A DNA stretch of 64,000 bases. Origin: a virus. Position 1 is the stretch's first letter. Each line of letters starts with the position of its first letter. The stretch lies in the IMG/VR virus record IMGVR_UViG_3300045988_055837; one strand, written 5' to 3'. Position numbers and translations under genes: made by a program. Under the pieces are notes generated by a model. It was not told the DNA's origin, ran no database searches, and saw nothing but the letters and a program-made list of their open reading frames with translations. Of the stretch, positions 36,789 through 56,686 are shown one piece after another.

Positions 36789-36850
36789 AAACTATCTCCT
36801 TTACCTTTTATATAAATATTATAGCATAATTAAATACAAAAAGCAAGTTA

Positions 36851-38011: not shown

Positions 38012-38204
38012 TTTCCTTCTCCTTAATCGCTGCATCTACTTTAGCTTTTAAATCATACAAATCTTCCAATCTCACGTCATAGAGCAGTCTAGTATTCATC
38101 GGTAGTGTAATTAAATCTCCATTTAGCTTATAGGAGAGTTGTTCATGCAGCAAAGCTACTTCTTCAACATTCATACTAGTCATATCTACATATAAAATAT
38201 TCAT
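37995..38204 (-). CDS. Small hypothetical protein of about 69 aa
   Basis: ORF whose 3' end overlaps the helicase start. Confidence 0.3.
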   Translation of the reverse strand: MNILYVDMTSMNVEEVALLHEQLSYKLNGDLITLPMNTRLLYDVRLEDLYDLKAKVDAAIKEKENGTNT

Positions 38205-38292
38205 ACCACTTTTCCTTTCCAAAAATAGTAAACCCTATTTTAGTTTCGGCGAACGGCCGTCTAGGTTCCGGCCAGTTCGTCGATTCTTTATT

Positions 38293-39057: not shown

Positions 39058-39133
39058 TTGATTGTTCCTCCTTTAGTAAGAGGTCGCGCAATCATTAAAA
39101 ATAATATTCCTGACGATTTATAATCTCATAATT

Positions 39134-40843
39134 CTAGATAATAAGTTGTGGTGTTACACTATTGAAGTATTTATTTACTTCGGCCTTACCCACAAGATTA
39201 ATAGTCACGCAACCGTTTTCGCTGAACAAACTATCCAGCTCCTCTTCGCTTGATTTAAACTTGATGCAAGTAACTCCGTTGGGTAATTGGATCTTCAACG
39301 TGGGGTTCCTATCTCTTGCCATGAGTGTAATCATGTCTTTTGTTACTGCAACATTTTCCACCGCGATAAGTGGTTCATCAACATTTTGACCCCAAAGATT
39401 TTTCATGTTACCTAGTTCAAGAATTTCTTTAGGATTAAAGTTGTTTACAGAATGAATAAAATCCACTTTATAACTTGGTGAAAATTCTATATCCTTGAGT
39501 GCATTATCGGCATATTCGAGAAAGGCATCAAAATTCTCGTCTAAGATACCGAAACCAAATGCATTAGGATGACCTTCAGCAAGATAAACTAAACCGCTAT
39601 CTCGACAAAAGCCTCTGAAATCATTTAGTTTAGATTTCTCATATCCACGTGCCGAACCGCTCCAAGCGATTTTCCCATCTTCTTCTACTTCCACTAACAA
39701 TGCCACAGGCCGCTGATACTCTGCCATAAGTTTATTAGCAATTAAACCAGTGATACCTCTATCAAAAGAAGGATGTTCTAATTTAATTAACAGAATCTTA
39801 TGGTCGAGGAGTTTATTATCCTCGATAATCGCTTTAACCTGTTCAACTGCGGCATCCTGATTTCTAGTCTGCCGATTCTTGACATTAGTGCAAGTCCGCA
39901 GACTTTGTTCCAACCTTGTCTCTTGTTGACCAGAGCATCCTCTCTTAGTTGAAGGAACTAAATCAAAAGCTTTCCAGTTAAGCATCGACTCAAATAATAG
40001 AGTCTTTTCAGCCATCGTTCCAACTCTTGTAATTGAGTTAATAAGCGGCACAATGTAGAAAGCCACCCCGATAGGAGTAGGGTGATCACCTAACTGATAA
40101 TGGTTCTTTTCCGCCATACCTTTGATAAATGGATTTTGAATTTGGCTTAATCCAGTTTGAACCAAATAGTGTGTTTCAAAATCTCTCAAATCCATCATAT
40201 CTCCAACTAAGCCAATAGCTACTATATCCAAGAATTGATCCGCTTTCTGTTGATCTGCGGGAAGCAGAGAATCAATAAATTGACATAGCTTATAAACTAC
40301 ACCAACACCGGAAAGCGACTTAGTAGGATAATCACAAAGCTGATTATTTACGACACAGGCGTATTCTGAAATTCTCTCAGCCTAATGGTGATCCAATACA
40401 AGAACTTCAATACCTTTATCATGAAGAGCCTTGTGAATATCGTAGTCATTAGAACTTGAATCTGGTGCAATGACCAATGATGTCTCTGGTGGAATCAACT
40501 CAGGGTTAATGCCATGAATCTTGCCATCGTGGAAACTATATGAAATATGCGATATAGCAGATGGAAATACGGCATGGATATAATTCAATAATAAAGCTGC
40601 TGAAGTATATCCATCACAGTCGCTATCCACTTGCACATGAATATGAAAACTATCTTTACTAAGTTGATTAAAAATCATCTTAGCTGCACTCTCAATATTT
40701 TTGAGTAAAAGGGGCGATAAATTATCCGATTCTGATACATTAAGATAATGGTTAATATCTTCAAATTTAATTCCTCTATTTGTCAACACCTATTCAATAG
40801 CGGAGTAACCGTCATGAATAGGCTTAATCAGCTAATAATCCAT
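39134..40843 (-). CDS. recJ: RecJ-like ssDNA exonuclease (DHH plus DHHA1), about 569 aa with 3 in-frame TAG
   Basis: DSDCDGYTSAA and LVLDHH (DHH). AEGHPNAFG (DHHA1). Track ORFs 40382..40789 and 39134..40231 are in the same frame, joined by TAG 40382-40384. Ribosome-binding site aaggagg then ATG at 40843. Confidence 0.75.
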
Positions 40844-40854
40844 GATTTACCTCC

Positions 40855-41958
40855 TTAACCTTTTGGAATAATTCGTTCAGCTAATAATTTCTCAAAAACT
40901 TGCGGCCCTTGGTCAATAGGGCTAGCTTTATAAGGTGAAATCATAGCTTTATCGAATATAGCTGTTACTCTTATAGAGTTATTATATTTATTATAAAAAT
41001 GAATAAGTTTAGCTTTTAATCGCTTAAATTCATCATCACTAATTTCTTGGAACTGCCTATCAAGAGCAATCACAATTTCTCTCGCGCCAACGTGCTTCAA
41101 CAAATCAACCTGGTAGCTCGATAAGCTACTTCCGCAAATAGCGACAGAAATATCATTCTCATGCCCATAATATGATTGATACATTAAGCAAGATTTCTCG
41201 CTCTCAAAGATAACTGCCGCGTGGATTTTAGCGATATTATCTTTGCTATTATTTAAGTTATACAAATTCATACTCAATGGATGATTGTATAACTGCTTAC
41301 CAATCAATAGAGGTCTATATTTGCCATATCTTTCGGCTTCATCTGCCGCTAAAGAACGACCTCTAATACCAATCAAACGATTATCAATGTCAAAATGCGG
41401 GATTGTGATTTGCTCGCCGCCTGGATAGTAGCCAATGAGATTCTTCTTACTCACTTCATCGCTAATTCCTTCTTGCTCCCAGCGAGAGATTCGCGGATAA
41501 GCAAAGCGAGTAAGAATAACTGGATCATATTCCTTTAGCTGAACCATAGGTTTCTTTTCTGGAAACCGCAGATTGTGTTTCTTAAATATGTCCCAGTCTT
41601 TTAACTCCGATTGTTCATCTTGTTTTTCGATACCATCAAAACCAAAGTACGATGCTATATAATCCATAGCATCGTACATTTCCCATTTCAGTTGCTTTTG
41701 ATTTTTCATTACCTTGATACATAGGTCAAAGATATCAAAAGTAGGGTCAATACAGCCAGTATAGCATCTAAACAATCGAGTATTAGTGTAATAATAAAGC
41801 TTGCGGGAACCTTCGCCAGGTAGATTGTGACAAATGGTTTGGGAGATAAGCCCTCCATCTGTGTACTCAGGCTCGCCTCCCCAAGCTTCTACCAAGTCAT
41901 AAATCTGCTCTAGTTCTAGTTTCTCCTTTAGCTCGTCTTTATCATAATAACGAGACAT
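40855..41958 (-). CDS. DNA primase (zinc-binding N-terminus plus Toprim-like core)
   Basis: CHNLPGEGSRKLYYYTNTRLFRCYTGC zinc motif. Position between dnaB and recJ. Confidence 0.6.
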   Translation of the reverse strand: MSRYYDKDELKEKLELEQIYDLVEAWGGEPEYTDGGLISQTICHNLPGEGSRKLYYYTNTRLFRCYTGCIDPTFDIFDLCIKVMKNQKQLKWEMYDAMDYIASYFGFDGIEKQDEQSELKDWDIFKKHNLRFPEKKPMVQLKEYDPVILTRFAYPRISRWEQEGISDEVSKKNLIGYYPGGEQITIPHFDIDNRLIGIRGRSLAADEAERYGKYRPLLIGKQLYNHPLSMNLYNLNNSKDNIAKIHAAVIFESEKSCLMYQSYYGHENDISVAICGSSLSSYQVDLLKHVGAREIVIALDRQFQEISDDEFKRLKAKLIHFYNKYNNSIRVTAIFDKAMISPYKASPIDQGPQVFEKLLAERIIPKG

Positions 41959-42131
41959 TACTCAATAATAACGAGATGAGTTACCGTACCACGCAGACCA
42001 TAACTCTCATTGATAATCCCCATTACATACTGATAAGGGTTCTTCTTTGCTTCATCATCCTTACGAGTAGAAAGAATACCATCAAACTGCTTCTTAGTAA
42101 TCTGATAATCAATAGCCTTAGAGTTCTTCAT
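41958..42131 (-). CDS. Small hypothetical protein of about 57 aa between dnaB and the primase. Not in the ORF track.
   Basis: Ribosome-binding site aaggagaag then ATG. TAATG overlap with the primase start. Confidence 0.3.
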   Translation of the reverse strand: MKNSKAIDYQITKKQFDGILSTRKDDEAKKNPYQYVMGIINESYGLRGTVTHLVIIE

Positions 42132-42143
42132 ATTATCTTCTCC

Positions 42144-43685
42144 TTAATTATTATCCCATGCACTGGGTCCATCATCTACAATAACCTTAATATCTTCAAT
42201 ACCAACCATCTCATGGTGCCAAGTGGTACAAAACTGAGGATGAATGCGGCAAGTACCTAAATCCGCCGTACACCATAAAAACACGCCCTTATAAGAGCCT
42301 CTTCTATTCTTGTAAACAGAGAGCTTAATATTTGGTCTTTGAAGATTGGGGTTTGCTTCAAAAATTGGTTCTAACTTTGCTAAATCTTCTTCTGAAACAC
42401 CTAGCAAAATCATACCTACGTCAGCTCGGTCGGCAATACTCTTAGCACCACGTAGTAAGTTCTGGTCAGGAGTTTCGCTATCTTTATAATCACCATTCAG
42501 CTGAGTTGCTGACATGATAAAAATACCATATTTATTTGCCAAATCTTTCAGTCTTGCGGAAAGCATAAACAAGATATTATCCTCTCTCAAGCGGATACCA
42601 CCTGTCTTCTTGGTAATTTCCTCCAAGATTTTCAAAGAGGTCTGAATATAGTCGAACAAGACATATTTAACATCATGCTCTCGAATATTCTTCTTAATCT
42701 TATTCTCAACATCTTGCAAAGAGAAATCTGGTAATTCCTCAATCCAGATAGGGCTATCTTTAATAATCTTCGCCGCCTCTACGACTCGCTCGCGTTCTCC
42801 CTCAAGATACTGACCGTTAAGAATATGCTCCTCATTTACACAAGAAAGAAAAGCCAACATCATTGTTTGAACTTCACCTTTATCTTGCTCTGTGGCAATA
42901 AAGAGTGTTGGTTGAGACGCGCCATTCTTAATCCAACCAAACTGTTCATGGTAGATACGATTACACGCAAAATTGCAGGCATCCGCAATCATACTTCTCG
43001 TTTTACCGATACCAGTAGCTGCGGACCGCAAGTAATATTTCCGCAATCTTGCTCCTCTTGTTACCGTATTGATAAGCGGTCCATAGAGAGGAATACCGAC
43101 CTCTGGATGCTTCTCAAGGTCTTCGATTAACTCCATGATACCATCACCCGCTTGATATCCAAGACCTAAATCATCTTCAATATACTTACTCTTGATTTCA
43201 TCAATCTTGGTATCAATCGTATTTGCAATATCAATTAGTGAAGTTGCATCTAACCAATCCTCTTGTTGCTGACGCTTCTTAGTATCAAGAAGATTATCTG
43301 CGTCATACAATCCACTTACATCCACTCCATAGCTATCATAAGCTCTTAACAAAGTGAACTTTTTCAATCTACCGTAGTAGTAGTTAAAAGTGTCTTGTCG
43401 AGCATTTTGAGAAGCTTCTAATAGATACTCAACACCTTTATTCTTCTTAAAGATTGCATCAAACTTAGGTCTATTGGCTAGATAGTCAATAATAGCGTCG
43501 ATATTAACCTGACTACCTGTCAGATGAATATTATACATACTACCGAATACAATCTTGTGAAAATCTTCTACGAAGTCCTCTTCGTGGATCATATACTTGT
43601 CTGTGTCATCGAGAATCGCGGCATTATTGAAGACACAACCGATAATCTGTGTGATAGCAGCAGTATCAACATAACTACTATTCAT
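42144..43685 (-). CDS. dnaB: Replicative DNA helicase, DnaB family
   Basis: Walker A GIGKT. DnaB C-terminal RecA-like fold motifs. 513 aa. Confidence 0.8.
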   Translation of the reverse strand: MNSSYVDTAAITQIIGCVFNNAAILDDTDKYMIHEEDFVEDFHKIVFGSMYNIHLTGSQVNIDAIIDYLANRPKFDAIFKKNKGVEYLLEASQNARQDTFNYYYGRLKKFTLLRAYDSYGVDVSGLYDADNLLDTKKRQQQEDWLDATSLIDIANTIDTKIDEIKSKYIEDDLGLGYQAGDGIMELIEDLEKHPEVGIPLYGPLINTVTRGARLRKYYLRSAATGIGKTRSMIADACNFACNRIYHEQFGWIKNGASQPTLFIATEQDKGEVQTMMLAFLSCVNEEHILNGQYLEGERERVVEAAKIIKDSPIWIEELPDFSLQDVENKIKKNIREHDVKYVLFDYIQTSLKILEEITKKTGGIRLREDNILFMLSARLKDLANKYGIFIMSATQLNGDYKDSETPDQNLLRGAKSIADRADVGMILLGVSEEDLAKLEPIFEANPNLQRPNIKLSVYKNRRGSYKGVFLWCTADLGTCRIHPQFCTTWHHEMVGIEDIKVIVDDGPSAWDNN

Positions 43686-44218
43686 GTATCTTCCTCTCCT
43701 TCGTCTAAGAATGTAAATAATTGCCGCGTATGCTTCATTGGCTCTCTCTTAGGAGGAACAATGTGAATCTCCCGCACAGGCAAATTATACTTCTGAATTT
43801 CTACTCCCTTATTGCGCTCTTGAGCTTCCCATAAAGCTCTCCAATAGTCAAATGCTTTATCATATACCCAAGGAATAATACCGATACCGCCGTTAGCTTT
43901 TTCGATCGGATTACCCTTAACTTCAAAGAAAAATTTCAGCGTTTTTCTCATTCCAGAATAACTATAATTTTTTTCTTTTCTAAAGGTGTCCATCTGTTTC
44001 CTAATTTTGACTGGGATAGTGCTAACTCCAAATAATTCCTTGATATATTCTTCTAATTCACGCTTATCTTTTTCTTCTTGAGTTTGATTTTCTTCTTCTG
44101 TCCTCGCACAAGCCACATGAGCATATCGTCTTGCGTTTGGTTTTACGAAAGGTTCGATATTAGCATCAAACATCTGGCCACAGTACAAACACTTCACCAT
44201 ATGTTTTGCCATAATCAT
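43682..44218 (-). CDS. Zinc-finger protein of about 175 aa, possible helicase loader or replication accessory
   Basis: CLYCGQ...HVACA. ATGA overlap with dnaB. Confidence 0.35.
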   Translation of the reverse strand: MIMAKHMVKCLYCGQMFDANIEPFVKPNARRYAHVACARTEEENQTQEEKDKRELEEYIKELFGVSTIPVKIRKQMDTFRKEKNYSYSGMRKTLKFFFEVKGNPIEKANGGIGIIPWVYDKAFDYWRALWEAQERNKGVEIQKYNLPVREIHIVPPKREPMKHTRQLFTFLDEGEEDT

Positions 44219-44269
44219 TACGCTCCTTTCTTTATATTTTCTATAACTATTATAGCATAATTATAATAA

Positions 44270-44305
44270 AAAATCAAAAGGAGAGTATTCATACAAGAAT
44301 ACTCT
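44270..44305. terminator. Hairpin aaggagagtattc-ataca-agaatactctcctt
   Basis: 13-bp stem seen in sequence downstream of the Sak4-like gene. Confidence 0.45.
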
Positions 44306-44314
44306 CCTTTAATC

Positions 44315-45289
44315 TTAGCCCTTAATTAGAAGCTCCAAGTCATGAACAATAAGGTCGATTTGTTCAGCTTGCTCAGGAGTACATTCTCCGACTTTCTTTC
44401 CCCTACCAAGATACTTATCAACAATAGCGGTAATCTTACCGGCATTAGACTGATTAGCAGACATCAATTCGCCAACCAATTCTTGGAAACGAGCATTTAG
44501 TCGGTCAAAATCATAAGTTACATCTTCTGTAACTACCTGAGTAGCTTCATTAGAAATAAACTTACCACCAGTCTCTTCTGCCTGCTTGTCGATAGCTTCC
44601 GCAATTGCATTTACTAAGTTATCATAGGTAAACTCAATAGAGTTCGGGATATACTTGAAACGAGAACCAGCTACATAACGAGGAGTGCCTCTCATAAAGA
44701 GACGAGTCTGAACGCCCTCGTCAGTATTTACGGAAGTAGAATAACCGATGATGTCGCAAGTTCTCTCGCAAATCAGACGACCTCTCTTATCAAGAGTAGG
44801 AACGATTTGGTTATACTCGTTACCCTCTTCATCCTTAAATACCTTATCAGTAGAGTGGGAAATCAAAATCAGACCATAATTCAACTGAAGAATCTTGCGG
44901 ATCGCCTCGTCAAATTCGGTACCAACCATGGAATAGCCCTTACCATAGGGTAGATCCGCGATGGTATCAACACCTTCACGATTGCAGACATACTTCTCGC
45001 AATAGCTGTAAGCAATATCTGCGGTGTCAATAACAATGGTCTGGAACTTTTCCTGTACTTCTGGAGTTTTCAGCTCTGTAAAGAGCTTCTTAAATTCGCC
45101 CCAGCTATTGATAGGCTGGGCATATACACCAGGCAACGCGTTATAACCCTTCTCAAAAGCGAGAAGAAGCGCGCCGGGAAATTTACTGGCAATCGTAGTC
45201 TTACCAGACTTAGGAGTGCCATAGAATAAAACGGAATATCCTCTTAAATCTCTTGATACTTCATGTGGTTTAAGGTCAAGCAAACTCAT
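44315..45289 (-). CDS. Sak4-like RecA-fold ssDNA-annealing ATPase (AAA_24)
   Basis: YGTPKSGKTT Walker A and VIDTADI Walker B. Confidence 0.65.
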   Translation of the reverse strand: MSLLDLKPHEVSRDLRGYSVLFYGTPKSGKTTIASKFPGALLLAFEKGYNALPGVYAQPINSWGEFKKLFTELKTPEVQEKFQTIVIDTADIAYSYCEKYVCNREGVDTIADLPYGKGYSMVGTEFDEAIRKILQLNYGLILISHSTDKVFKDEEGNEYNQIVPTLDKRGRLICERTCDIIGYSTSVNTDEGVQTRLFMRGTPRYVAGSRFKYIPNSIEFTYDNLVNAIAEAIDKQAEETGGKFISNEATQVVTEDVTYDFDRLNARFQELVGELMSANQSNAGKITAIVDKYLGRGKKVGECTPEQAEQIDLIVHDLELLIKG

Positions 45290-45326
45290 AATTATCTTTC
45301 TCCTTTAATTATTTTATTTATAATGA

Positions 45327-45358
45327 GGAAATGAAAGGGGTAGATAACTACCCCTTAT
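45327..45358. terminator. Hairpin aaggggtag-ataa-ctacccctt between the SSB-like and Sak4-like genes
   Basis: Seen in sequence, with a T-rich flank. Confidence 0.4.
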
Positions 45359-45362
45359 TTAA

Positions 45363-46319
45363 TTAGAAGTTGTAGTCGCCCTTCGCAGGAGCCGCAGTTG
45401 CCTTAGAGGCACTACCCGCGGCCGCGTTACCACGAGAAGCCTGATACTCGTCCTGACGCTTCTTAATCTCAGCAAGATGAACCTCACGAGCGGTCATCAT
45501 CTCGCCCAGTTCAGAAGCCAACAAAGTATCTTCGCTATCCCACTCATAAGTCTCAGGCTGCGCCCAGTTAATCACAAAGTCACGCTGAGAAGTACGAGTT
45601 TCCTTTACAACAGCTTCACCAAATGCGCTCTCTTCCTCGGTCTTGCGTACAATAGTTTTGGATACCTGAATACCCTGAACTCTGGTGAAGACCGGAGAAC
45701 TAGAAGAAGCGCCGAGATTTTCGAAATAATCGAGAGCCTTAGCAGGAGCATATGGCTCATAAACGCTAAACTCAACAGGAAGCAGAGCATTGCGGAAGTC
45801 AAACACGCAACCCTTAACAATTACCTTTTCGGGAGTTTCCTTCTCTTCATCGGCCTCAACACGACGGACATTAGTAATCACCATATCAGTGTTGAAAGTT
45901 GCACGACTCTTAGGCTCGCACAGTTCCTGTACCTGATGTACGAAGCCTCCCTCGTTACGACGGACAGACACCAGATTGCCATCCTTATCATACCACTCAT
46001 TTAGACCAATGGCAGTATCAATACGGACCTTACCTGCGTTCTCTTTGCCGTGTTCCATTACAGAACCAATCTTGCCATCAATGATAGATTGCAGAACATT
46101 AAAGGTGTTATTAGGCTTGCCCTTAGCGGTCACCGCAGTTACATAAGTGAAATGCACCTGCACAACATTGAGCATCTCGTCATCAGTTGCCACGCTAAGA
46201 GTACCACTAATAAACTCAGTACCGGGATTCTTAGAGTTGGGGCCGCTCTCCTTCATTTCCAGCTTGTGCTCGTAAACATAACCTTCGACATGGGATTCAT
46301 TCTTCATTTTCTTACTCAT
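45363..46319 (-). CDS. Putative ssDNA-binding protein with a C-terminal ...GDYNF tail
   Basis: Position upstream of Sak4. SSB-like C-terminal tail. Weak. Confidence 0.3.
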   Translation of the reverse strand: MSKKMKNESHVEGYVYEHKLEMKESGPNSKNPGTEFISGTLSVATDDEMLNVVQVHFTYVTAVTAKGKPNNTFNVLQSIIDGKIGSVMEHGKENAGKVRIDTAIGLNEWYDKDGNLVSVRRNEGGFVHQVQELCEPKSRATFNTDMVITNVRRVEADEEKETPEKVIVKGCVFDFRNALLPVEFSVYEPYAPAKALDYFENLGASSSSPVFTRVQGIQVSKTIVRKTEEESAFGEAVVKETRTSQRDFVINWAQPETYEWDSEDTLLASELGEMMTAREVHLAEIKKRQDEYQASRGNAAAGSASKATAAPAKGDYNF

Positions 46320-46747: not shown

Positions 46748-47266
46748 TCAACTGACCCTATCATACCGCCAAAATTGATATTTGATGTCGTTATATGAGG
46801 CCATTGAGTCTTCCTCAATAGCATTCCATTCTTTTGATTCATCGAGATTAGGGAAAAAGGTATCAATATTATCATGACTTGCATAGATTTTTGTTACATA
46901 AACTCTATCGCAATAGGGGAGAAGAGCATTGTAAATCTGTCCTCCACCAATAACAAAAATATCCATATCACAAGCCTTAATGTAATCAAGAGTTCCCTCT
47001 AATGGCATTGCAACAGTTAGATTTCCAAGAATAGAAATCACCCCATTTGAAACCATTGAGTTAGAAACAATAATATTGATACGGTCTGGAAGCCTTGGAA
47101 GAGTTTCCTTCTTAGGAAGACTCTCCCATGTATTGCGTCCCATTACTACAACATTATATTGGGTCAGCTCTTTAAAATGTTTTAGATCAGCTGGGATATG
47201 TTCTAATAGTTGACCTTGATAGCCAATCCCCCAATTCTCGTCTACCGCAACAATAGCAGAAATCAT
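46748..47266 (-). CDS. folA: Dihydrofolate reductase
   Basis: MISAIVAVDENWGIG...VVMGRNTWESLP. Confidence 0.85.
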   Translation of the reverse strand: MISAIVAVDENWGIGYQGQLLEHIPADLKHFKELTQYNVVVMGRNTWESLPKKETLPRLPDRINIIVSNSMVSNGVISILGNLTVAMPLEGTLDYIKACDMDIFVIGGGQIYNALLPYCDRVYVTKIYASHDNIDTFFPNLDESKEWNAIEEDSMASYNDIKYQFWRYDRVS

Positions 47267-48114
47267 ATGCCTAACTCCAACTTTAACTGCGGTTTCATGG
47301 GAGAGTAATTCTCTATCGTAAAATCATCAATGGTCATGTCATAGAAATTAGTTTTCTCAGGATTTAGACGCAATACAGGATTCTTGCAAGCATCATCGCC
47401 AAAGAACATACTATTGAAAAATCTTGAAATCATTTCATGTGCAGCATCCATATGACGGTCATAAATCTGTTCATTAGCCACTACATGACTAAATACTCCA
47501 GGTTTATAACCAGTATGACGAGCAATCATCATCAAGAGCGCTGCATACTGGATTTCATTGATACCACCGGGACCAGAAGCGGTAAGCATATCGCCGCTAC
47601 GCTAAACCAGCATCATATCAAGATATTCTCCACGAACATTCCAGATGGTTAGAAACGCACAAGGTGCCAATCCCGCAGTTTCACGAAGATCAGCTTCTTG
47701 CCATAAAGAAACTACCTTGCGGCGACCATATGGATCATTTTCAATATCCTTAATCAAATTATTGATTAAGTCATATCGACTTACTGTTGCTCCATAACGC
47801 TGACCGATCGTACCATCCCCAATATCCCAGTCACCCCACCAATTAACGCCCATTTCTTCCATCTTAGCGATTTCATTCGTAGGCTTTTGATAGATAGTGA
47901 AGATTTCCTTGATACCAGTCTTCCAAGCCATCGGCCGTAGGGTACAAATAGGAAATTCTCCTTTGGACAAATCATAAGTGCGGAAATTATGATTTACAGA
48001 GAGAGTATGCGCGGGAGTACCATCGGCGTAATGCGGTCTTGGGTTAATATCCTTATATCCATTATCAAGAATAAGATTGATTGTTTCAACCATATAATTA
48101 TCTGCTTTATTCAT
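47263..48114 (-). CDS. thyA: Thymidylate synthase, 283 aa, with one in-frame TAG at the invariant Gln of the YQRS motif
   Basis: Track ORFs 47602..48114 and 47263..47589 join as ...EYLDMMLV-TAG-RSGDMLTASGPGGINEIQYAALL, aligning to E. coli [26 protein letters not shown]. Confidence 0.9.
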
Positions 48115-48426
48115 TCAGTTATCGTCTCCCACAGTATTTGTGTATCCTACAATGTTGAATTGATTGAGCCAGCTATCTAGTTCATCAATAACAGCAATAC
48201 ATTTCATACCTCTAGCTTTTGTTAGAAAATATCCATAGCTAATAAATCCTAAATTTTGCGGTAGATTACGCTCTTTTGTTAACTCTAAGAACTTTTTAAC
48301 CATCAGTTGAGGATGTTGAGTAACAAAGAGTACCATCTTATCAGGATACTTATGTGCTAAATCATTTGCGTAGTACATTAAGCTAGTTGTCTTACCTGCA
48401 CCACGACTTGCAATTACCTTAAACAT
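48115..48426 (-). CDS. Small P-loop NTPase of 103 aa
   Basis: Walker A ASRGAGKTT. Confidence 0.4.
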   Translation of the reverse strand: MFKVIASRGAGKTTSLMYYANDLAHKYPDKMVLFVTQHPQLMVKKFLELTKERNLPQNLGFISYGYFLTKARGMKCIAVIDELDSWLNQFNIVGYTNTVGDDN

Positions 48427-49343
48427 TATGAACCTCCACGAGTTCCATTCATACCTAGTTCTTTAGTCTTATAGAACTCAATCCAATAAGTCTCTCGTTC
48501 ATTTAACTAATCTCTAGGCACTTCTTCCAAAATCTCAAATATAAAATTATATTGACCAGATTTTTGCATCGCCTAATATAACTTATTAGTCACAGGTCCG
48601 TATGCTAAAGAGGTTTTAATGTGCTGTCTAAAACGCTCTTTAATATCAACAGACTAACCAATATAAGCCTAACCAGTTGTTAGATCGGTAATCTTATAGA
48701 TACCGCATACTTTACCTTTATTAGTGGCAAATAGATGCGTCATAAGAATATCATATGCAGGACGATAATAGGTCTCCCATATTACTTTATCAATGATTTC
48801 CTTTTTCACAAAGTGAATTTGCAAATCACGCAATAGAGTAATATCGTTCAAACTAAATTCATCAATAGCAAGACGATAATAGTCCTAATCTGCGGCAATC
48901 GCTTCTTGGCGTTGCTAAGCCTAGATATAAGACAACTATTTAGCTTCTAATTCGTGAAGTTTGTCTTGCTGATGAGAGATTTGATTAGTTATCTATTGAA
49001 GTTCTGCTAAATGATACTTTTCTTTGGCTTGATATGTTTCATCCAGCTCTTTAGTTTTCTTTTCAAATTGAGCTCTAGCGCTCTCTTCTGCTCGCTACTC
49101 AGCGCTTTTCCGCAACTTATTCGCAGTATCATTCAAAGAATTGACAATTTCATTATGTGATACAATATCTTCTTTTACTTTTGCTAATTCTCTCTATTTC
49201 AATGCAATATCTTGTTCAATGCGTTTATTCTCTTCTTGTCTTTCTTTATTTATCAATACTACCTAAAGCCGATTATTGCGAAGATATAAAACATATCCAA
49301 TCAGCGCAAGAATAACCAAGCCTGATAATATATAATAAATCAT
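48424..49343 (-). CDS. GIY-YIG nuclease domain fused behind an N-terminal transmembrane helix and a ~150-aa coiled coil. About 306 aa with about 12 in-frame TAG.
   Basis: Hand translation. N-terminus IYYILSGLVILALIGYVLYL. C-terminal CGIYKITDLTTGQAYIGQSVDIKERFRQH...NERETYWIEFYKTKELGMNGTRGG. Track ORF 48669..48851 is a fragment. Stop TAA overlaps the ATG of the downstream NTPase. Confidence 0.55.
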
Positions 49344-49392
49344 AAGTAAAAGAAATCGGTAAGAGGCATAATCCTCTTACCGATCTAATTTA

Positions 49393-49656
49393 TTACTCCT
49401 GGGCGTCAGGATCGAAAGCCAAGCCCTTATCAGTCAAGCGAAGATACTTAACTTTCTGATGGGAGCCATCGGCAAGCTCAACCTCAGCGGGCTCACGCAC
49501 ACCATAGTCCTTGCGCTGTAGAGCAGAGGTAAAAATACCATCAACCTGGCGCTTCTCAAGACCAAGAGCTTCAGCCACATCAGCGGCAGTTAGATCCTTG
49601 TCAGTATTGTCCTTTAGATAATCAAAAACCTTACGAGTATTTTCCTTCATAGCCAT
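49393..49656 (-). CDS. Small hypothetical protein of 87 aa
   Basis: Intact ORF. Confidence 0.35.
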   Translation of the reverse strand: MAMKENTRKVFDYLKDNTDKDLTAADVAEALGLEKRQVDGIFTSALQRKDYGVREPAEVELADGSHQKVKYLRLTDKGLAFDPDAQE

Positions 49657-49920: not shown

Positions 49921-49967
49921 TATATTATATCAGAAAATATTTTTTAAGTCAACAAAAAATTTCTGAT
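49921..49967. other. Inverted repeat atatcagaaa...tttctgatat (10-bp arms) around a T6/A6 core
   Basis: Seen in sequence at the 3' end of the ligase gene. Confidence 0.3.
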
Positions 49968-51097
49968 ATTACGCAATCTTTTGCATCCTTATCGTCTCTT
50001 TTGCACTTGAAGACGGGATGCCGCAAAGTATGCTCTTTCTTATCAATTTGCATACAATCAAGAGCTACAACATGACCAAGCCACAAATCGGGATTCTCAG
50101 TCATTTCTCTTTTGTTATCATCAGTTAATCCAGAGCTAACTGTACCTAAGTCAACAAGTTCACCCTTATCATTGTATGCACCAATCCTAATCGCGGTTTT
50201 CCAGCCAAGAAAATAAGGCTTGGTTATTGGTCTATAAATATGAGGATTATGCAAATAATCTTCATAATATCGGCCTTCGCTTAACAGCCAAGTATATTCA
50301 CCATCTTGGCTTCGCTCGCCACGCTCTTCCCAGTATTCCCAAGTAGCTAACTCTTTACCGGTATACTCTTTTGTAGCATCACAAAAGCCAGTGCAGATTA
50401 AATCAATAGAATCCATCTGTTTGACTTTGATGGTAGACCATGCAGGTCTTTTTCCGGGAGTATACGGATAGTCTTTCTTCTTTAGAACAGCGCCTTCACC
50501 GCCAGATTTCAAGATACGAGAGATTTCAGCTTCCATATCTTCATCAACGCGGGTGGCAAGTCTTAAAAAACTATACTGCTCAAGATTATGTTTCTTCCAG
50601 ATAGCGGAAAGAATCTTATAGCGCAAATCCGCAGGCGAGTCAATAAGATTGACTGTATCATATGCAATAATATCATGCACATAATAATGGATTGGTTCTT
50701 TCTCTTGTCTCTTGATAGCAAGAGCAGGTAAACACCCCATAATACTTACAGTATCTTTCGATGTACCACCGGGAACATAAATTTCTCCAATGAGAATTGT
50801 TCCTGCGGGAAGGCAGCTCAATGCTTCCTTCAAGTGAGGGACATTGTCACTTTTTTCTGTAAGAATGCCAGATAGTTTACTTACTGTGCGACCAAAAAGA
50901 TAAGAATGATTTTCAGTTTTTACAAACTGATAAAATGCTCCATCAATCTTCTCTTCAAGGAAATATTCCCCATTAGAGCATACTTCAGAGAGCATGGATT
51001 CCTTTCCCGCAGGTAACTTCCAAATGAGCATTGGCTCAATCATTAAGTTTTCCGCTTCAGGATACAACTCATGTATCTTACTTTTATCAAAACTCAT
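49949..51097 (-). CDS. ATP-dependent DNA ligase
   Basis: EEKIDGAF (KxDG adenylation motif I). 382 aa. Confidence 0.8.
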   Translation of the reverse strand: MSFDKSKIHELYPEAENLMIEPMLIWKLPAGKESMLSEVCSNGEYFLEEKIDGAFYQFVKTENHSYLFGRTVSKLSGILTEKSDNVPHLKEALSCLPAGTILIGEIYVPGGTSKDTVSIMGCLPALAIKRQEKEPIHYYVHDIIAYDTVNLIDSPADLRYKILSAIWKKHNLEQYSFLRLATRVDEDMEAEISRILKSGGEGAVLKKKDYPYTPGKRPAWSTIKVKQMDSIDLICTGFCDATKEYTGKELATWEYWEERGERSQDGEYTWLLSEGRYYEDYLHNPHIYRPITKPYFLGWKTAIRIGAYNDKGELVDLGTVSSGLTDDNKREMTENPDLWLGHVVALDCMQIDKKEHTLRHPVFKCKRDDKDAKDCVISEIFC

Positions 51098-51163
51098 TTA
51101 TTGCAAACTCCTTATCCCGCGAGCAGTGACATTAAACCGGCACAAGCAAAAATGCCAAGAGTA

Positions 51164-51344
51164 CAAATAGAACTTATGGTAAATTCTATCCAAAATATCC
51201 TAGACCATTGGGCGGATTTTTCCTCGTCGGAAGGTTTATAAGTTGCATAACAATACTTATACTTAAAGCTATGCACCCAATTCTTACTATCTCACGCAAT
51301 ACAAATGCTACTACAGTAATTAGTCCAACTAAAAATGCACTCAT
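51164..51344 (-). CDS. Small two-transmembrane-helix membrane protein of about 60 aa. Not in the ORF track.
   Basis: Hand translation MSAFLVGLITVVAFVL... Confidence 0.25.
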
Positions 51345-51402: not shown

Positions 51403-51434
51403 CAACTAAGAGAAAGAATGGGTATACCCATTCT
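51403..51434. terminator. Perfect 32-bp palindrome agagaaagaatgggtatacccattctttctct just after the topoisomerase A-subunit stop
   Basis: Seen in sequence. Confidence 0.5.
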
Positions 51435-51439
51435 TTCTC

Positions 51440-53803
51440 TTATACTTGCGTGATAGAAATCACTTGTTCGTTGTTCTTCAGCATGATATTGCCCATAGAA
51501 ATTCTACCAAGAGTGGGAATGTCTTTACCACTGATAACAATAGATGACTTGTCACCATTAATAAGGAGATTATCGCTTTCTTTGATAATCTCCGCTCCGG
51601 CGATTTCTCCCTTATAGCAGAGTAATCCCTTGCCTCCACGATTCTGTAAAGTAAGTTCATCAATCTGCATTTTCTTACCCAAGCCATTCTTGGAAACAAT
51701 AGCGAGATAATCTGCGGGATCCACGATCGGCAATGCTGCGATTACACTGTCGCCATCATTTAGTTTCATGCCCTTAACACCTTGTGCTGTGCGCGAAGAG
51801 ATAGGCATTTCCGCTGTTCCAAATCGAATGGTCATGCCATTCTTTGTTACCAATAACATCTGCTCTTGATTGATAAATGTAACATCTGCGAGTTCATCGC
51901 CGTCTTTAAAGCTGATGGCGATAATGCCAGTACGCTTCATCTTATCATATTCATCAAGAGGCACTTTCTTGATAGTGCCATTCTTCGTGGCAAAGAAGAT
52001 AAACTTCTTGTCAGTATCTCTAGTCATCGTGGTAAATGCCATAGGCTTCTCACCATTCTCAAACTCGATCAAAGTAGAGATGGGCGTGCCATTAGAGGCG
52101 TTTGTACCTTCCGGGATATTATCCACCAATACACGATACATCTTACCCTTAGAGGAGAATACCATCAAGGTATCTTGTGTATTAGTTTTCTGCGAGAAGA
52201 GAACAATATCACCAGTTTTAACGCCAGTAGTATTACGCTTTTGAGCCTTAAAATTCTTAGCATCAATACGCTTAATAGTGTTCTTCTTTGTCACTACAAC
52301 TACGCAATCCTTCGGCTCGACGACAACTACTTCTTTCTCTTGCTTTGGAATGTCGGTGTTAAGCAGTTTAGTTCTACGAGCATCGCCATAAGTGTCTCTT
52401 AACTGAGTAATCTTAGAGATTAAGACCTTATTTCTTACTTCCTTATTAGTTAAGATTTCAATACACTTAGCAATAAACTCTTTCTTTTCTTTTAACTCAT
52501 TGACTAATTCTTCTTTATCAATACGAGTTAATTTACCGAGCTTCATATCGAGAATTGCATTTGCTTGCACTTCATCAACAGAGAGGAAGTCCATTAGCTT
52601 GATTCTCGCATCAGCGCGTCCCGCAGACTGCTTAATCAATGCAATTACTTCATCAATCTTATCAACTGCGGCAATCAGACCTTCAAGGATATGCGCTCTT
52701 GCTTCAGCTTTCTCTTTATCGAAAGTAGTAGCGTTGACGAGGACTTCTTCTTGATGGTCAACATACGCATGGAGTAAGTCAACCATAGAACATAACTTAG
52801 GAGTACCATTAACGATATAATTCATGTTATAGGATAAAGTAGACTGTAAATCTGTCAGCAGGAATAACTTATTCAATGCTTTAGATACAGACACTCCATC
52901 TTTTACATGGAATACCAGCTTGTTCTGACCGATGTTGGATTCATCATCGAAGTCATCAATCAATTCACTCAAAACATCAATATTCTTCTCAATCTGTTCC
53001 TTAATCTTATTACGGTAGGTGCGATAAGGAATACTGGTGAAAACGATATCCTGTCCATCAATCTCATAATCACCCTGAATTTTCAGAGAGATATTGGATT
53101 TACCGGACGCAAAAGCTGCCCGCACATCCTTAATGTTAAGAACTGTACCACCGAGAGGGAAATCTGGACCGGGGATATAGGACAACACTTCATCAATAGT
53201 CAGTTCGCCCTTCTCAATTAGGGCAATAGCAGCATTACATACCTCTGTCAGATTGTGCGGGGCAGAGTTATGCGCCATAGAAATGCCGATTGCCTGACGA
53301 CCGTTACAGATTGCATTAGGAAATAGTGAAGGAAGAACGATAGGTTCTTGAAACTCGCCATTATAAGTCTCTTTAGTAGGAACAACATTCTTACTAAAGT
53401 CATTCATCATCAGGTCAGTAAACTTAGAAGGCTTAGCCTCAGTATAACGAGAAGATGAGAACATATCGTTATTTTCTTGTGTACCAAGCTGTCCTTGTCC
53501 AGTTACAAGAGGATAGCGCATGAGGAACTCCTGCGCCATCTTCCGCAGAACACCATAGCAAGCAATATCGCCATGGAAGTAGGAGGTTGCCAAAGTAGAA
53601 CCAATGATAGCATTACACTTCTTAGTCTTACTCTTGTTATCCATCTTTAGATAATCTTCCATCGTCCAAAGAATCTTTCGCTGAGCACTAAGGAGACCAT
53701 CTTCCGCGGCAGGAATCGCACGATCGGTTAGAACTTCTTCTGCATAAGTTAGAAAGTTATCTTTAGCTTCATCAAGAATATCAACTTCTGTAATCAAACT
53801 CAT
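51440..53803 (-). CDS. Type II DNA topoisomerase A subunit (GyrA/ParC/T4 gp52-like)
   Basis: AIPAAEDGLLSAQRKILW. Active-site SSSRYTEAK. Confidence 0.8.
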   Translation of the reverse strand: MSLITEVDILDEAKDNFLTYAEEVLTDRAIPAAEDGLLSAQRKILWTMEDYLKMDNKSKTKKCNAIIGSTLATSYFHGDIACYGVLRKMAQEFLMRYPLVTGQGQLGTQENNDMFSSSRYTEAKPSKFTDLMMNDFSKNVVPTKETYNGEFQEPIVLPSLFPNAICNGRQAIGISMAHNSAPHNLTEVCNAAIALIEKGELTIDEVLSYIPGPDFPLGGTVLNIKDVRAAFASGKSNISLKIQGDYEIDGQDIVFTSIPYRTYRNKIKEQIEKNIDVLSELIDDFDDESNIGQNKLVFHVKDGVSVSKALNKLFLLTDLQSTLSYNMNYIVNGTPKLCSMVDLLHAYVDHQEEVLVNATTFDKEKAEARAHILEGLIAAVDKIDEVIALIKQSAGRADARIKLMDFLSVDEVQANAILDMKLGKLTRIDKEELVNELKEKKEFIAKCIEILTNKEVRNKVLISKITQLRDTYGDARRTKLLNTDIPKQEKEVVVVEPKDCVVVVTKKNTIKRIDAKNFKAQKRNTTGVKTGDIVLFSQKTNTQDTLMVFSSKGKMYRVLVDNIPEGTNASNGTPISTLIEFENGEKPMAFTTMTRDTDKKFIFFATKNGTIKKVPLDEYDKMKRTGIIAISFKDGDELADVTFINQEQMLLVTKNGMTIRFGTAEMPISSRTAQGVKGMKLNDGDSVIAALPIVDPADYLAIVSKNGLGKKMQIDELTLQNRGGKGLLCYKGEIAGAEIIKESDNLLINGDKSSIVISGKDIPTLGRISMGNIMLKNNEQVISITQV

Positions 53804-56363: not shown

Positions 56364-56603
56364 TTAAATGGTTGCTTCATCCTCGACTACTTGCTGCTAT
56401 TGTTTCTCACACATAGCTAAATCATAAGTAATCCCACCCTTGCGGTGATCGGATTTACTCATGTTTAAGTAAAAAGAGCAAACAATACCATGCGCAGACC
56501 ATGGCAATCCTACTAATGCACTAATCCATGGGAGAGTACCCAGATAACCAAGATGTACGCAATAGAAAGCAAGAGCAATACCGGAGATAGTTACAATCCA
56601 CAA
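56364..56603 (-). CDS. Small two-transmembrane-helix membrane protein of about 79 aa immediately downstream of the endolysin. Holin candidate.
   Basis: Two hydrophobic helices. Reads through TAG at 56397 to TAA 56364. Confidence 0.4.
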
Positions 56604-56686
56604 GAGAGAGCGAATGTCGCAAATAAGCTATTTAGAAAATTCTTTTTTCTAGCTATGTTTTCCTTTTCCTCTTGTTTGACGACCCA

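What the first reader, a model, noticed from the sequence alone, without database searches (positions are those of the whole stretch)
48424..49343. GIY-YIG nuclease domain fused behind a transmembrane helix and a ~150-aa coiled coil
With TAG read as Gln, one 306-aa ORF joins an N-terminal hydrophobic helix (IYYILSGLVILALIGYVLYL), a long heptad-repeat coiled coil (QEENKRIEQDIALKQRELAKVKEDIV...) and a canonical C-terminal GIY-x10-YIG nuclease fold. That fold carries the catalytic Arg (KERFRQH), Glu (NERETYW) and GxN. Free-standing GIY-YIG homing endonucleases are N-terminal-domain proteins. A membrane-tethered, coiled-coil-spaced GIY-YIG is atypical and could be a nuclease of an exclusion, defence or anti-defence function rather than a homing endonuclease. 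It sits next to thyA and a small P-loop NTPase, a classic homing-endonuclease neighbourhood.
Basis: partly seen in the sequence, partly recalled or inferred. Interest (0 to 1): 0.6.

Follow-up and report, generated by a model that had tools for sequence, protein, structure and literature searches.

The report
Membrane-tethered GIY-YIG nuclease, translated only after recoding
A large uncultured gut phage that reads TAG as glutamine carries a conserved core gene for a DNA-cutting enzyme held at the inner face of the cell membrane by a helix and a long stalk; it is built like the bacterial anti-phage nuclease SNIPE, and its 12 in-frame TAG codons mean it can only be made after the phage switches the genetic code.

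Summary
On the minus strand, 49343..48426 is one 305-codon frame with 12 in-frame TAG and no TAA/TGA.

It is not a homing endonuclease. Full-length relatives (29-98% identity) sit at the same place, after an 87-aa winged-helix gene in an SPbeta-like replication module. That holds in every related contig that reaches that far. thyA, DHFR and the small NTPase are the variable neighbours.

Three further findings:
- The gene uses TAG for 46% of its Gln codons, like the late genes, against 2 of 143 in 14 flanking replication genes. This recurs across lineages at different positions.
- A terminator-like hairpin precedes the start codon in most relatives.
- Near-identical phages carry alleles in which only the middle domain, or the middle plus nuclease domains, is swapped.

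The closest analogue in architecture is SNIPE (PD-lambda-1), but DUF4041 and the PD-lambda-1 model do not match. The most likely role is cutting DNA at the membrane, such as DNA of a superinfecting phage. That role is inferred, not shown.

The parts
48426..49343 (-). Whole gene: 305 codons plus a TAA stop, with 12 in-frame TAG codons read as Gln. The first bases of the TAG codons, in window coordinates, are 49265, 49196, 49097, 48995, 48938, 48923, 48917, 48887, 48671, 48656, 48575 and 48509.
49281..49343 (-). N-terminal transmembrane helix (aa 1-21, MIYYILSGLVILALIGYVLYL). The predicted topology is N-out, C-in.
   Evidence: the most hydrophobic 19-mer has mean KD 2.3. K+R averages 0.26 before the helix and 3.3 in the 15 residues after it. 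67 of 70 family members have more basic residues after the helix.
48894..49271 (-). Helical stalk or coiled coil (aa 25-150). It is rich in charged residues and Gln, and it is the most variable part of the family in sequence and in length.
   Evidence: AF2 helix 2-151, pLDDT 74-94; heptad register
48708..48893 (-). Conserved helical middle domain (aa 151-212; motif D-YYRL...DI..LR.LQ..F.KK..IDK.IWE.YY.P). It has no Pfam match. It is the unit that is swapped between near-identical phages.
48447..48707 (-). GIY-YIG catalytic domain (aa 213-299) with GIY214-216, YIG227-229, R237, H241, E284 and N299.
49353..49386 (-). Intrinsic-terminator-like hairpin (14-bp stem, 6 G-C pairs) followed by a T-rich tail. 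It lies between the stop of the 87-aa winged-helix gene and the nuclease ATG, and it ends 9 nt before that ATG. No Shine-Dalgarno sequence follows it.
   Evidence: 38 of 59 distinct upstream regions in relatives, 33 different hairpin sequences
49393..49656 (-). 87-aa winged-helix-like protein. It is the invariable upstream neighbour of the nuclease gene and contains no TAG.
49924..49952 (-). Sigma-70-like promoter (TTGACT-17-TATAAT, 11 of 12, with TG) ahead of the small ORF and the winged-helix gene. Their transcription unit ends at the hairpin.
   Evidence: consensus match only
48115..48426 (-). 103-aa P-loop NTPase. Its ATG overlaps the nuclease stop (TAATG), and its GGAGG lies inside the last nuclease codons. 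It is present only in part of the clade.
46748..48114 (-). thyA (47263-48114, one TAG at 47602-47604 on the Gln of the QRSGD motif) and DHFR (46748-47266), packed tightly behind the NTPase. Relatives have ThyX or a ThyX-like protein here instead.

Best explanation
Shown or directly supported:
- The gene encodes a catalytically competent I-TevI-type GIY-YIG DNA endonuclease.
- It is fixed to the cytoplasmic membrane by a single N-terminal helix. The stalk, the middle domain and the nuclease are predicted to face the cytoplasm.
- It is a vertically inherited, always-present gene of the SPbeta-like replication and nucleotide-metabolism module. That module belongs to a large clade of uncultured 100-200 kb phages from gut and rumen samples.
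- The full-length protein can only be made once TAG is read as Gln. With TAG as a stop, the product ends after 26 residues.
- The gene is separated from the upstream early operon by a terminator-like hairpin.

Inferred:
- The stalk dimerises. This would pair two single-active-site nuclease domains so that both DNA strands can be cut.
- The membrane anchor keeps a nuclease of low sequence specificity away from the phage's own replicating DNA, as was shown for SNIPE.
- The enzyme acts on DNA that appears at the inner face of the membrane. The most likely target is the genome of a second phage or another mobile element entering an already infected cell. That would make it a SNIPE-like superinfection exclusion nuclease.
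- The swappable middle domain is the module that recognises the DNA or an entry-associated protein.

How likely: about 0.85 that it is a membrane-anchored active nuclease and a core gene rather than a homing endonuclease. About 0.4 that its role is cutting incoming DNA. The confidence given for this explanation (0.4) is for the whole statement, including the inferred role.
For: Fold and catalytic residues. The residues are invariant across 40 close and 30 distant relatives.

Anchor and topology. Every full-length relative that was read starts with a hydrophobic helix.

Core-gene status:
- 260 cluster representatives at E<1e-30, nearly all 290-380 aa with full-length matches.
- Conserved order GyrB-GyrA-(ligase)-wHTH-nuclease-...-YorF-AAA_24-YorH-DnaB-primase-RecJ.
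- No YorF-anchored locus that reaches far enough upstream lacks the gene.

Translation depends on the code switch:
- 12 TAG among 26 Gln codons, against 2 of 143 in the 14 flanking replication genes (Fisher p = 1e-9). The ratio is indistinguishable from late structural genes, 55 of 155 (p = 0.38).
- The same contrast holds in other recoded lineages: 8-16 TAG in the nuclease gene against 0-2 in its neighbours.
- TAG positions are mostly not shared between lineages, and they flip even among 98%-identical strains.
- The published model that recoded codons hold back late genes is bioRxiv 10.1101/2021.08.26.457843.

Hairpin.

SNIPE precedent for the architecture, the topology and the protective role of the anchor: bioRxiv 10.1101/2025.11.03.685801 and PMC9519451.

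Signs of conflict-type evolution:
- Against flanks that are 95-99% identical, a ~300-bp patch covering only the middle domain drops to 77-81% DNA identity (66% protein identity). Other alleles swap the middle and nuclease domains together, or the anchor and stalk.
- In the SNIPE family the N-terminal region is also the most variable part.
Against: - Exclusion genes are usually accessory and expressed early. This gene is universal in its clade and is held back until after the code switch.
- No sequence link to SNIPE was found beyond the shared GIY-YIG clan. There is no DUF4041 hit for the window protein at E<=1 or for 30 relatives at E<=0.01. There is no PD-Lambda-1 PADLOC hit for the window protein.
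- Topology, dimerisation, DNA substrate and timing are predictions. No cultured phage or host carries the gene, so nothing has been tested.
Confidence: 0.4

Rival explanations
1. DenA-like host-DNA breakdown. After the code switch the nuclease, perhaps together with the RecJ-like exonuclease, degrades the host chromosome to feed the adjacent thymidylate synthase pathway with nucleotides. This would parallel T4 endonuclease II.
For: - A thymidylate synthase (ThyA+DHFR, ThyX or a ThyX-like protein) follows the gene in essentially every lineage despite non-orthologous replacement. It is often translationally coupled to the nuclease gene.
- In T4, denA lies beside frd-td-nrdAB (own knowledge).
- The RecJ-like exonuclease is the only other replication-module gene that accumulates recoded codons.
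- Universal conservation fits a life-cycle function.
Against: - No known host-DNA-degrading phage nuclease is membrane-anchored.
- In SNIPE the anchored form does not cut the host chromosome even when DNA is dragged to the membrane. Only the anchor-less form does (bioRxiv 10.1101/2025.11.03.685801).
- Allelic swapping of the middle domain between near-identical phages is not expected for a housekeeping salvage enzyme.
- No DNA-modification genes that would protect phage DNA were looked for or seen.
Confidence: 0.2
2. A replication or packaging helper at the membrane. The protein tethers phage DNA to the membrane, as phi29 p16.7 does. It nicks or resolves replication or recombination intermediates late, before packaging.
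For: - The gene has a fixed position inside the replication module.
- The layout TM + coiled coil + DNA-acting C-terminal domain resembles phi29 p16.7 (own knowledge).
- Late production fits concatemer processing.
- The gene is universal in the clade.
Against: - The nuclease domain is of the homing-endonuclease type, not a known resolvase.
- There is no precedent for a membrane-bound resolvase.
- Domain swapping between close strains is hard to reconcile with a conserved interaction with the phage's own replication machinery.
Confidence: 0.15
3. A free-standing GIY-YIG homing endonuclease that inserted between the winged-helix gene and the NTPase/thyA genes.
For: - The nuclease domain scores best against homing-endonuclease models: TIGR01453, PHROG 5123/7168 and PADLOC HEase.
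- It is about 50% identical to the domain of short free-standing GIY-YIG genes that lie between gyrB and gyrA in related contigs L051 and L058.
- thyA is a classic target neighbourhood (own knowledge).
Against: - There is no presence/absence polymorphism in any informative relative.
- The gene has diverged along with the module to 29% identity at a fixed position.
- The catalytic domain is C-terminal and ends the protein, with no NUMOD or other DNA-binding domain.
- All members carry a membrane anchor.
Confidence: 0.03
4. A lysis-related membrane protein (spanin-, holin- or lysis-regulator-like) that happens to carry a nuclease domain.
For: - There are weak PHROG hits of aa 4-97 to Rz-like spanins, E 0.008-0.014.
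- TAG use is as heavy as in the lysis genes at 56364-58018.
- Lysis genes are the class most biased to recoding (bioRxiv 10.1101/2021.08.26.457843).
Against: - The gene lies 7 kb from the lysis cassette, in a different and conserved context.
- The charge distribution predicts the bulk of the protein inside the cell, the opposite of an i-spanin.
- The spanin hits are at chance level and are of coiled-coil type.
Confidence: 0.05

Closest known systems
SNIPE / PD-lambda-1 (E. coli anti-phage defence; Vassallo 2022 PMC9519451; Saxton et al. bioRxiv 10.1101/2025.11.03.685801)
   Same: - The order of parts is the same: one N-terminal transmembrane helix (N-out, C-in), elongated helices, a small middle domain, and a C-terminal nuclease of the GIY-YIG clan.
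- The N-terminal region is the most variable part and the nuclease the most conserved.
- In SNIPE the anchor is what prevents cutting of resident DNA.
   Different: - This protein is encoded by a phage, as a core gene of its replication module, not by bacteria.
- It is 305 aa. SNIPE is longer; its nuclease domain ends near residue 449.
- It has no DUF4041 (PF13250) match.
- Its nuclease is the PF01541/I-TevI type, not T5orf172/MUG113.
- The PD-Lambda-1 PADLOC model does not match it.
- Its production depends on TAG suppression.
- Homology outside the nuclease clade is not shown, so the shared layout may be convergent.
Uzume (UzuA), a single-gene defence system with a C-terminal GIY-YIG domain (PADLOC PDLC03973; bioRxiv 10.1101/2024.10.26.620412)
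   Same: - It is of similar size (profile of 278 positions), with the GIY-YIG domain at the very C-terminus.
- The window protein matches profile positions 182-276 at E 3.8e-8.
- 25 of 30 distant relatives match.
- One relative, P0191, aligns over positions 8-278.
   Different: - For the window protein only the nuclease part matches, and more weakly than the homing-endonuclease models do.
- The UzuA mechanism is unknown and no paper on it was found in the library.
- UzuA is bacterial, not a phage replication-module gene.
I-TevI and other GIY-YIG homing endonucleases
   Same: - All catalytic residues align.
   Different: - The domain order is reversed.
- There is no linker or DNA-binding domain.
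- The protein has a membrane anchor.
- The gene is not mobile and is present in every relative.
T4 endonuclease II (DenA)
   Same: - In T4 it is encoded beside thymidylate synthase, DHFR and ribonucleotide reductase genes (own knowledge). The neighbourhood here is similar.
   Different: - DenA is a small soluble early protein.
- Sequence identity is 12%.
- DenA has no anchor, stalk or middle domain.

Membership tests
GIY-YIG nuclease superfamily (Pfam PF01541, clan CL0418) | Profile score above the curated threshold | tested here: met
   PF01541 scores 33.6 bits against a cutoff of 22.6 over aa 213-293. TIGR01453 scores 69.2 against 56.05. 30 of 30 distant relatives match PF01541.
GIY-YIG nuclease superfamily (Pfam PF01541, clan CL0418) | GIY and YIG motifs about 10 residues apart, plus the catalytic Arg, His, Glu and Asn | tested here: met
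   The alignment to I-TevI gives Y216/Y227/R237/H241/E284/N299 = Y6/Y17/R27/H31/E75/N90. The positions mutated in PDB entries 1ln0 (R27A) and 1mk0 (E75A) align with R237 and E284. These residues are invariant or nearly so in A1 and A2.
GIY-YIG nuclease superfamily (Pfam PF01541, clan CL0418) | Three-stranded sheet with flanking helices (the GIY-YIG fold) | tested here: met
   [not shown]
GIY-YIG homing endonucleases (I-TevI, Seg, group I intron endonucleases) | [quoted passage not shown] | tested here: not met
   The catalytic domain is the last ~90 residues of the protein. No NUMOD or other DNA-binding domain was found at E<=1.
GIY-YIG homing endonucleases (I-TevI, Seg, group I intron endonucleases) | Sporadic presence among close relatives (an empty site exists); mobile insertion | tested here: not met
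   Every YorF-anchored locus that reaches far enough upstream has the gene at the same position, and none lacks it. Synteny is kept down to 29% identity.
SNIPE / PD-lambda-1 | [quoted passage not shown] | tested here: met
   This is a prediction only. A hydrophobic helix lies at residues 1-21. K+R averages 0.26 before it and 3.3 after it, and 67 of 70 members follow this pattern. There is no experimental topology.
SNIPE / PD-lambda-1 | DUF4041 (PF13250) middle domain | tested here: not met
   There is no PF13250 hit at E<=1 for the window protein, nor at E<=0.01 in any of 30 relatives. A profile-profile or structural comparison of the 60-aa middle domain with DUF4041 could not be run.
SNIPE / PD-lambda-1 | C-terminal nuclease of the T5orf172/MUG113 type; match to the PD-Lambda-1 model | tested here: not met
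   The nuclease matches PF01541, not PF10544 or PF13455. There is no PD-Lambda-1 PADLOC hit at E<=1. Only the N-terminus of relative P0280 matches weakly, at E 4e-4.
SNIPE / PD-lambda-1 | Cuts phage DNA during injection; the anchor prevents self-cleavage | not testable with these tools
   This needs expression, infection and localisation experiments.
Uzume (UzuA) | Match to the UzuA model over its whole length | tested here: inconclusive
   For the window protein, aa 211-299 match profile positions 182-276 of 278 at E 3.8e-8. One relative, P0191, aligns over positions 8-278 at E 4.6e-8. 25 of 30 relatives match through the nuclease part.
Rz-like i-spanin | Anchor with a periplasmic coiled coil, encoded in the lysis cassette with an o-spanin partner | tested here: not met
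   The PHROG hits are at E 0.008-0.014 only. The predicted topology is the opposite. The gene is 7 kb from the lysin and the holin-like gene.

The most novel reading that the evidence does not exclude
Phages of this clade carry their own SNIPE-like 'entry-site' nuclease. It would be a membrane-tethered, dimeric GIY-YIG enzyme that destroys DNA of rival phages or mobile elements as it crosses the membrane of an already infected cell. It would have a cassette-like middle domain that is exchanged between strains to change target range. It would also have a safety lock, made of stop-codon recoding and an upstream terminator, that prevents any synthesis before the phage has switched the cell's genetic code. 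That would be the first phage-encoded counterpart of SNIPE. It would also be a clear case of recoding used to gate a single dangerous enzyme inside an otherwise standard-code early module.
Probability: 0.3. Interest if true: 0.8.

Novelty: new variant of a known kind. Interest (0 to 1): 0.62.

Why it matters
- **Annotation.** Profile searches label this family 'group I intron / homing endonuclease'. In the one GenBank relative (phAss-1) it is split by table-11 annotation into small hypothetical proteins. Here it is shown to be a fixed, membrane-anchored core gene of a widespread clade of large gut and rumen phages. One 98%-identical variant was seen on 351 contigs.
- **A lead on SNIPE.** It gives a phage-side counterpart to the newly described SNIPE mechanism, in which self and non-self DNA are told apart by location at the membrane.
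- **Recoding.** It offers a natural test of the idea that stop-codon recoding times protein production. Inside a TAG-free replication module, this one gene (and partly the RecJ-like exonuclease) is loaded with TAG. This recurs in many lineages at independent positions, while standard-code relatives have none.
- **A candidate specificity module.** The domain-sized allelic swaps point to a part of the protein that could be tested directly.

Tried and rejected
- **Megablast.** A search of 10 kb around the gene against GenBank phages found nothing.
- **Protein searches of GenBank phages.** The window protein and two distant relatives found only phAss-1 beyond the nuclease domain. No cultured phage carries the gene.
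- **Representative search.** P0001, 98% identical, was used instead.
- **SNIPE sequence.** I tried to obtain a SNIPE or DUF4041 sequence for a profile-profile test. The SNIPE preprint text and the Vassallo supplements give only contig and protein accessions of draft genomes that are not in the collections. The PDB holds no detectable SNIPE entry.
- **Uzume.** A literature search gave no mechanistic paper.
- **tRNA.** There is no tRNA in the window, so the suppressor tRNA is elsewhere in the genome.
- **Other GIY-YIG genes.** None is present in the window.
- **Pseudogene reading.** Rejected: 12 TAG but no TAA or TGA in 305 codons, strong conservation, and intact catalytic residues.
- **Spanin reading.** Rejected on predicted topology and gene context.
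- **TGA-recoded relatives.** Only 1-2 in-frame TGA were found in a few of them. That is too few to count as independent convergence.
Full report
**1. What is in the sequence**

The feature lies on the minus strand. Translation from the ATG at 49343 gives 305 codons up to a TAA at 48428-48426. The frame holds 12 TAG codons and no TAA or TGA.

The window as a whole comes from a TAG-recoded phage:
- The plus-strand genes at 0.2-14.2 kb become long ORFs only when TAG is sense. Examples are 1296 aa with 15 TAG, 913 aa with 14, and 652 aa with 11.
- The genes at 30-56 kb mostly have none.
- The only TAG in thyA falls on the Gln of the conserved QRSGD motif (that this Gln is invariant in ThyA is my own knowledge).
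- Public gene calls contain the full-length 305-aa protein. One 98%-identical variant was seen on 351 contigs of up to ~148 kb (one reaches 287 kb).
- No tRNA gene lies in the window.

**2. Domain anatomy**

Pfam GIY-YIG (33.6 bits, cutoff 22.6) and TIGR01453 (69.2 bits, cutoff 56.05) match aa 213-299.

An AlphaFold2 model built on 40 homologues has mean pLDDT 84. It shows one helix from residue 2 to 151, a small helical domain at 153-204, and a GIY-YIG fold at 214-296.

The HMMER alignment to I-TevI maps Y216, Y227, R237, H241, E284 and N299 onto Y6, Y17, R27, H31, E75 and N90. These residues are invariant or nearly so in close and distant relatives.

The first 21 residues are strongly hydrophobic. 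Across 70 family members there are on average 0.26 basic residues before the helix and 3.3 in the 15 residues after it. [quoted passage not shown]

A heptad pattern is clear for about residues 36-77 and 106-130. The stalk is therefore plausibly, but not demonstrably, a coiled coil along its whole length.

The stretch aa 151-212 is a conserved domain of its own, with motif D-YYRL...DI..LR.LQ..F.KK..IDK.IWE.YY. It has no Pfam match.

**3. A large family with a fixed genomic place**

An exhaustive HMMER search found 260 cluster representatives at E<1e-30. Nearly all are 290-380 aa and match over the full length at 30-50% identity.

In one genome per species of GTDB, full-length relatives occur only on 100-200 kb contigs of gut and rumen metagenome bins. 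These contigs carry the phage's replication module, so I read them as phage genomes binned with bacteria. No full-length relative was found in an isolate genome.

In GenBank phages, only the uncultured phAss-1 has the middle domain plus the nuclease. NCBI places phAss-1 in the 'Caudoviricetes code 15 clade' (see also PMC10607447). There the gene is annotated as fragments because table 11 was used.

The gene order is kept while the nuclease protein diverges to 29% identity. That order is RNase H, GyrB, GyrA, (ligase), an 87-aa winged-helix protein, the nuclease..., a second winged-helix protein, YorF, AAA_24, YorH, DnaB, primase, RecJ.

To avoid selecting for the gene itself, I fetched 55 IMG/VR loci through the neighbouring YorF protein, at 99-45% identity. 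Every locus with enough upstream sequence has the pair winged-helix gene then nuclease gene. The six loci without it are cut by contig ends.

This removes the homing-endonuclease reading. There is no empty site, and the thyA, DHFR and NTPase genes are the variable ones.

Short free-standing GIY-YIG genes do occur between gyrB and gyrA in some relatives (L051, L058). Their domain is about 50% identical to this one. The nuclease domain is therefore shared with true mobile endonucleases of the same phage group.

**4. The gene is coded like a late gene**

In the window, 12 of its 26 Gln codons are TAG. The 14 flanking replication-module genes have 2 of 143 (Fisher p = 1e-9). The late structural genes have 55 of 155, which does not differ from the nuclease gene (p = 0.38).

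The same contrast is seen in other recoded lineages. The nuclease gene has 8-16 TAG while GyrA, GyrB, ligase, the winged-helix gene, YorF, AAA_24 and DnaB have 0-2. Standard-code relatives have none.

TAG positions are mostly not shared between lineages. The window shares 3 of 12 with L006 and 0-1 with L022, L036 and L041. Positions flip between CAA/CAG and TAG even among 98%-identical strains. The load is therefore maintained by turnover, not inherited once.

The first TAG is codon 27, directly after the anchor. Before suppression is available, only a 26-residue peptide can be made.

This fits the published proposal that recoded codons hold back late and dangerous genes (bioRxiv 10.1101/2021.08.26.457843). 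That paper also reports a 'group I intron endonuclease' family preferentially recoded in ~154-kb Agate phages. It may be this family, but I could not check.

The RecJ-like exonuclease is the only other gene of the module that accumulates recoded codons, with 4 in the window and up to 13 elsewhere.

**5. Local regulation signals**

A hairpin with a 14-bp stem and a T-rich tail lies at 49386-49353 on the coding strand. It sits between the stop of the winged-helix gene and the nuclease ATG, 9 nt away.

A hairpin plus T tract is found within 90 nt upstream of the start in 38 of 59 distinct relatives. There are 33 different hairpin sequences, ending a median of 12 nt before the ATG.

By the same test, six other genes of the module score 0-1 of 41-57. 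AAA_24 (18 of 64) and YorH (17 of 37) also have such hairpins.

There is no Shine-Dalgarno sequence before the ATG in the recoded lineages. Standard-code relatives do have one.

A strong sigma-70-like promoter at 49952-49924 precedes the small ORF and the winged-helix gene. The nuclease stop overlaps the start of the next gene (TAATG here), and similar overlaps occur in relatives.

These are sequence patterns. Their function was not tested.

**6. What follows the gene**

After the nuclease, relatives carry a ~92-103-aa P-loop NTPase and/or ThyX (PF02511, E 1e-29 to 1e-53), a divergent ThyX-like protein, or ThyA plus DHFR as in the window.

A thymidylate synthase of some kind therefore keeps this place by non-orthologous replacement. 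This recalls the T4 cluster frd-td-nrdA-nrdB-denA (own knowledge) and is the main support for the nucleotide-salvage rival.

**7. Domain-sized allelic swaps**

Some phages have flanking genes 95-100% identical to the window yet carry different nuclease alleles:
- In L086 only aa 151-212 differ (66% identity), while the anchor, stalk and nuclease are 98-100% identical.
- In L088 and L090 the middle domain (66-68%) and the nuclease (88%) differ.
- In L127 the anchor and stalk differ (56-75%), while the middle and nuclease domains are 94% identical.

At the DNA level the L086 difference is a sharp dip to 77-81% over about 48950-48650, in a 95-99% background.

Such cassette-like exchange is typical of specificity modules in conflict systems. 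It is an inference that this is what it means here.

**8. Comparison with known systems**

SNIPE (PD-lambda-1) is an E. coli defence protein with the following parts and properties (PMC9519451 supplement; bioRxiv 10.1101/2025.11.03.685801):
- It has one N-terminal transmembrane helix, with N-out, C-in topology shown by reporter fusions.
- It has elongated helices, a DUF4041 domain that binds DNA, and a C-terminal GIY-YIG-clan nuclease.
- The anchor keeps the nuclease from cutting the chromosome.
- It cleaves phage DNA during injection.

The protein here has the same order of parts and the same predicted topology. It fails the sequence tests for membership:
- There is no DUF4041 match.
- The nuclease is of the PF01541 type rather than T5orf172.
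- There is no PD-Lambda-1 model hit.

Uzume (UzuA) also has a C-terminal GIY-YIG domain. The match is to the nuclease part only, except for one relative. No mechanistic paper on Uzume was found.

I therefore file this protein as working like SNIPE in layout, not as a member of that family.

**9. Verdict**

Well supported: this is an active, membrane-anchored GIY-YIG nuclease that is a fixed core gene, not a homing endonuclease. It can only be produced after the switch to TAG = Gln.

Inferred, at about 0.4: it cuts DNA arriving at the membrane, as superinfection or mobile-element exclusion. The middle domain would act as the exchangeable recognition module.

The main rivals are late host-DNA breakdown for nucleotide salvage (0.2) and processing of membrane-associated replication intermediates (0.15). 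Against the favoured reading, the universality of the gene and its delayed production both count, and nothing has been tested experimentally.

Noticed in passing
window 47602-47604 (thyA, minus strand 47263-48114): thyA is a single 283-codon frame interrupted by one TAG. The TAG falls on the Gln of the conserved QRSGD motif. This is a clean internal calibration that TAG = Gln in this phage. It also means active ThyA needs suppression.
   Followed up: partly
window 39095-40843 (minus); L102, L104, L007, L032, L027: The RecJ-like exonuclease (YorK-like) is the only other gene of the replication module that accumulates recoded codons. It has 4 TAG in the window and 9-13 in some relatives. In the TGA-using L027 it has 3 in-frame TGA, against 1 in the nuclease gene and 0 elsewhere. 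Both nucleases of the module may be held back.
   Followed up: partly
window 56364-58018 (minus): Lysis cassette. A 107-aa membrane protein has 3 TAG among 7 Gln codons. A 443-aa lysin (Phage_lysozyme2, Amidase_2, weak SLH domain) has 5 TAG. The weak SLH hit may say something about the host envelope.
   Followed up: no
window 32892-46319 (minus): The replication module copies the Bacillus SPbeta order: YorF, AAA_24 (YorG-like), YorH, DnaB (YorI-like), primase-like 367 aa, RecJ-like (YorK-like), then a 1298-aa protein that is probably the YorL-like polymerase. It has essentially no TAG.
   Followed up: partly
L051 8001-8276; L058 8001-8255: In some relatives a short free-standing GIY-YIG gene sits between gyrB and gyrA. 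Its domain is about 50% identical to the nuclease domain of the tethered protein. It looks like a true homing endonuclease, and it is a possible source or sink of the catalytic domain.
   Followed up: no
Downstream of the nuclease gene in L006, L008, L009, L012, L014, L015, L022, L025, L032, L037, L043: There is non-orthologous replacement of thymidylate synthases at one position: ThyA+DHFR, canonical ThyX, or a ~270-aa divergent ThyX-like protein (Thy1 E 9e-4). In L036 the ThyX-like gene appears split by an inserted 259-aa ORF.
   Followed up: partly
Start regions of the nuclease gene in the window and in L001-L043: Recoded lineages lack a Shine-Dalgarno sequence between the hairpin and the ATG. 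Standard-code relatives have one (e.g. L009, L014, L017, L027, L028). Most other genes of the window have a strong AGGAGG.
   Followed up: partly
window 50150-50450 and about 51100-51200 versus L086, L088, L127: The ligase gene and the small-ORF region between GyrA and ligase also show allelic patches of 61-70% DNA identity in an otherwise 95-99% identical background. Mosaic exchange is therefore not limited to the nuclease gene.
   Followed up: no
L005 (phAss-1, OQ749652) 7434-8414 and 8716-8974: In the GenBank record the orthologue is annotated as two small hypothetical proteins because table 11 was used. It is followed within 400 nt by tRNA-Leu and two suppressor tRNAs (CTA), then by anaerobic ribonucleotide reductase genes.
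   Followed up: partly
window 51407-51442 (minus): A second strong terminator-like hairpin (16-bp stem) lies at the 3' end of the GyrA gene, whose stop is at 51440-51442. It is followed by a promoter-like site at 51405-51377.
   Followed up: no
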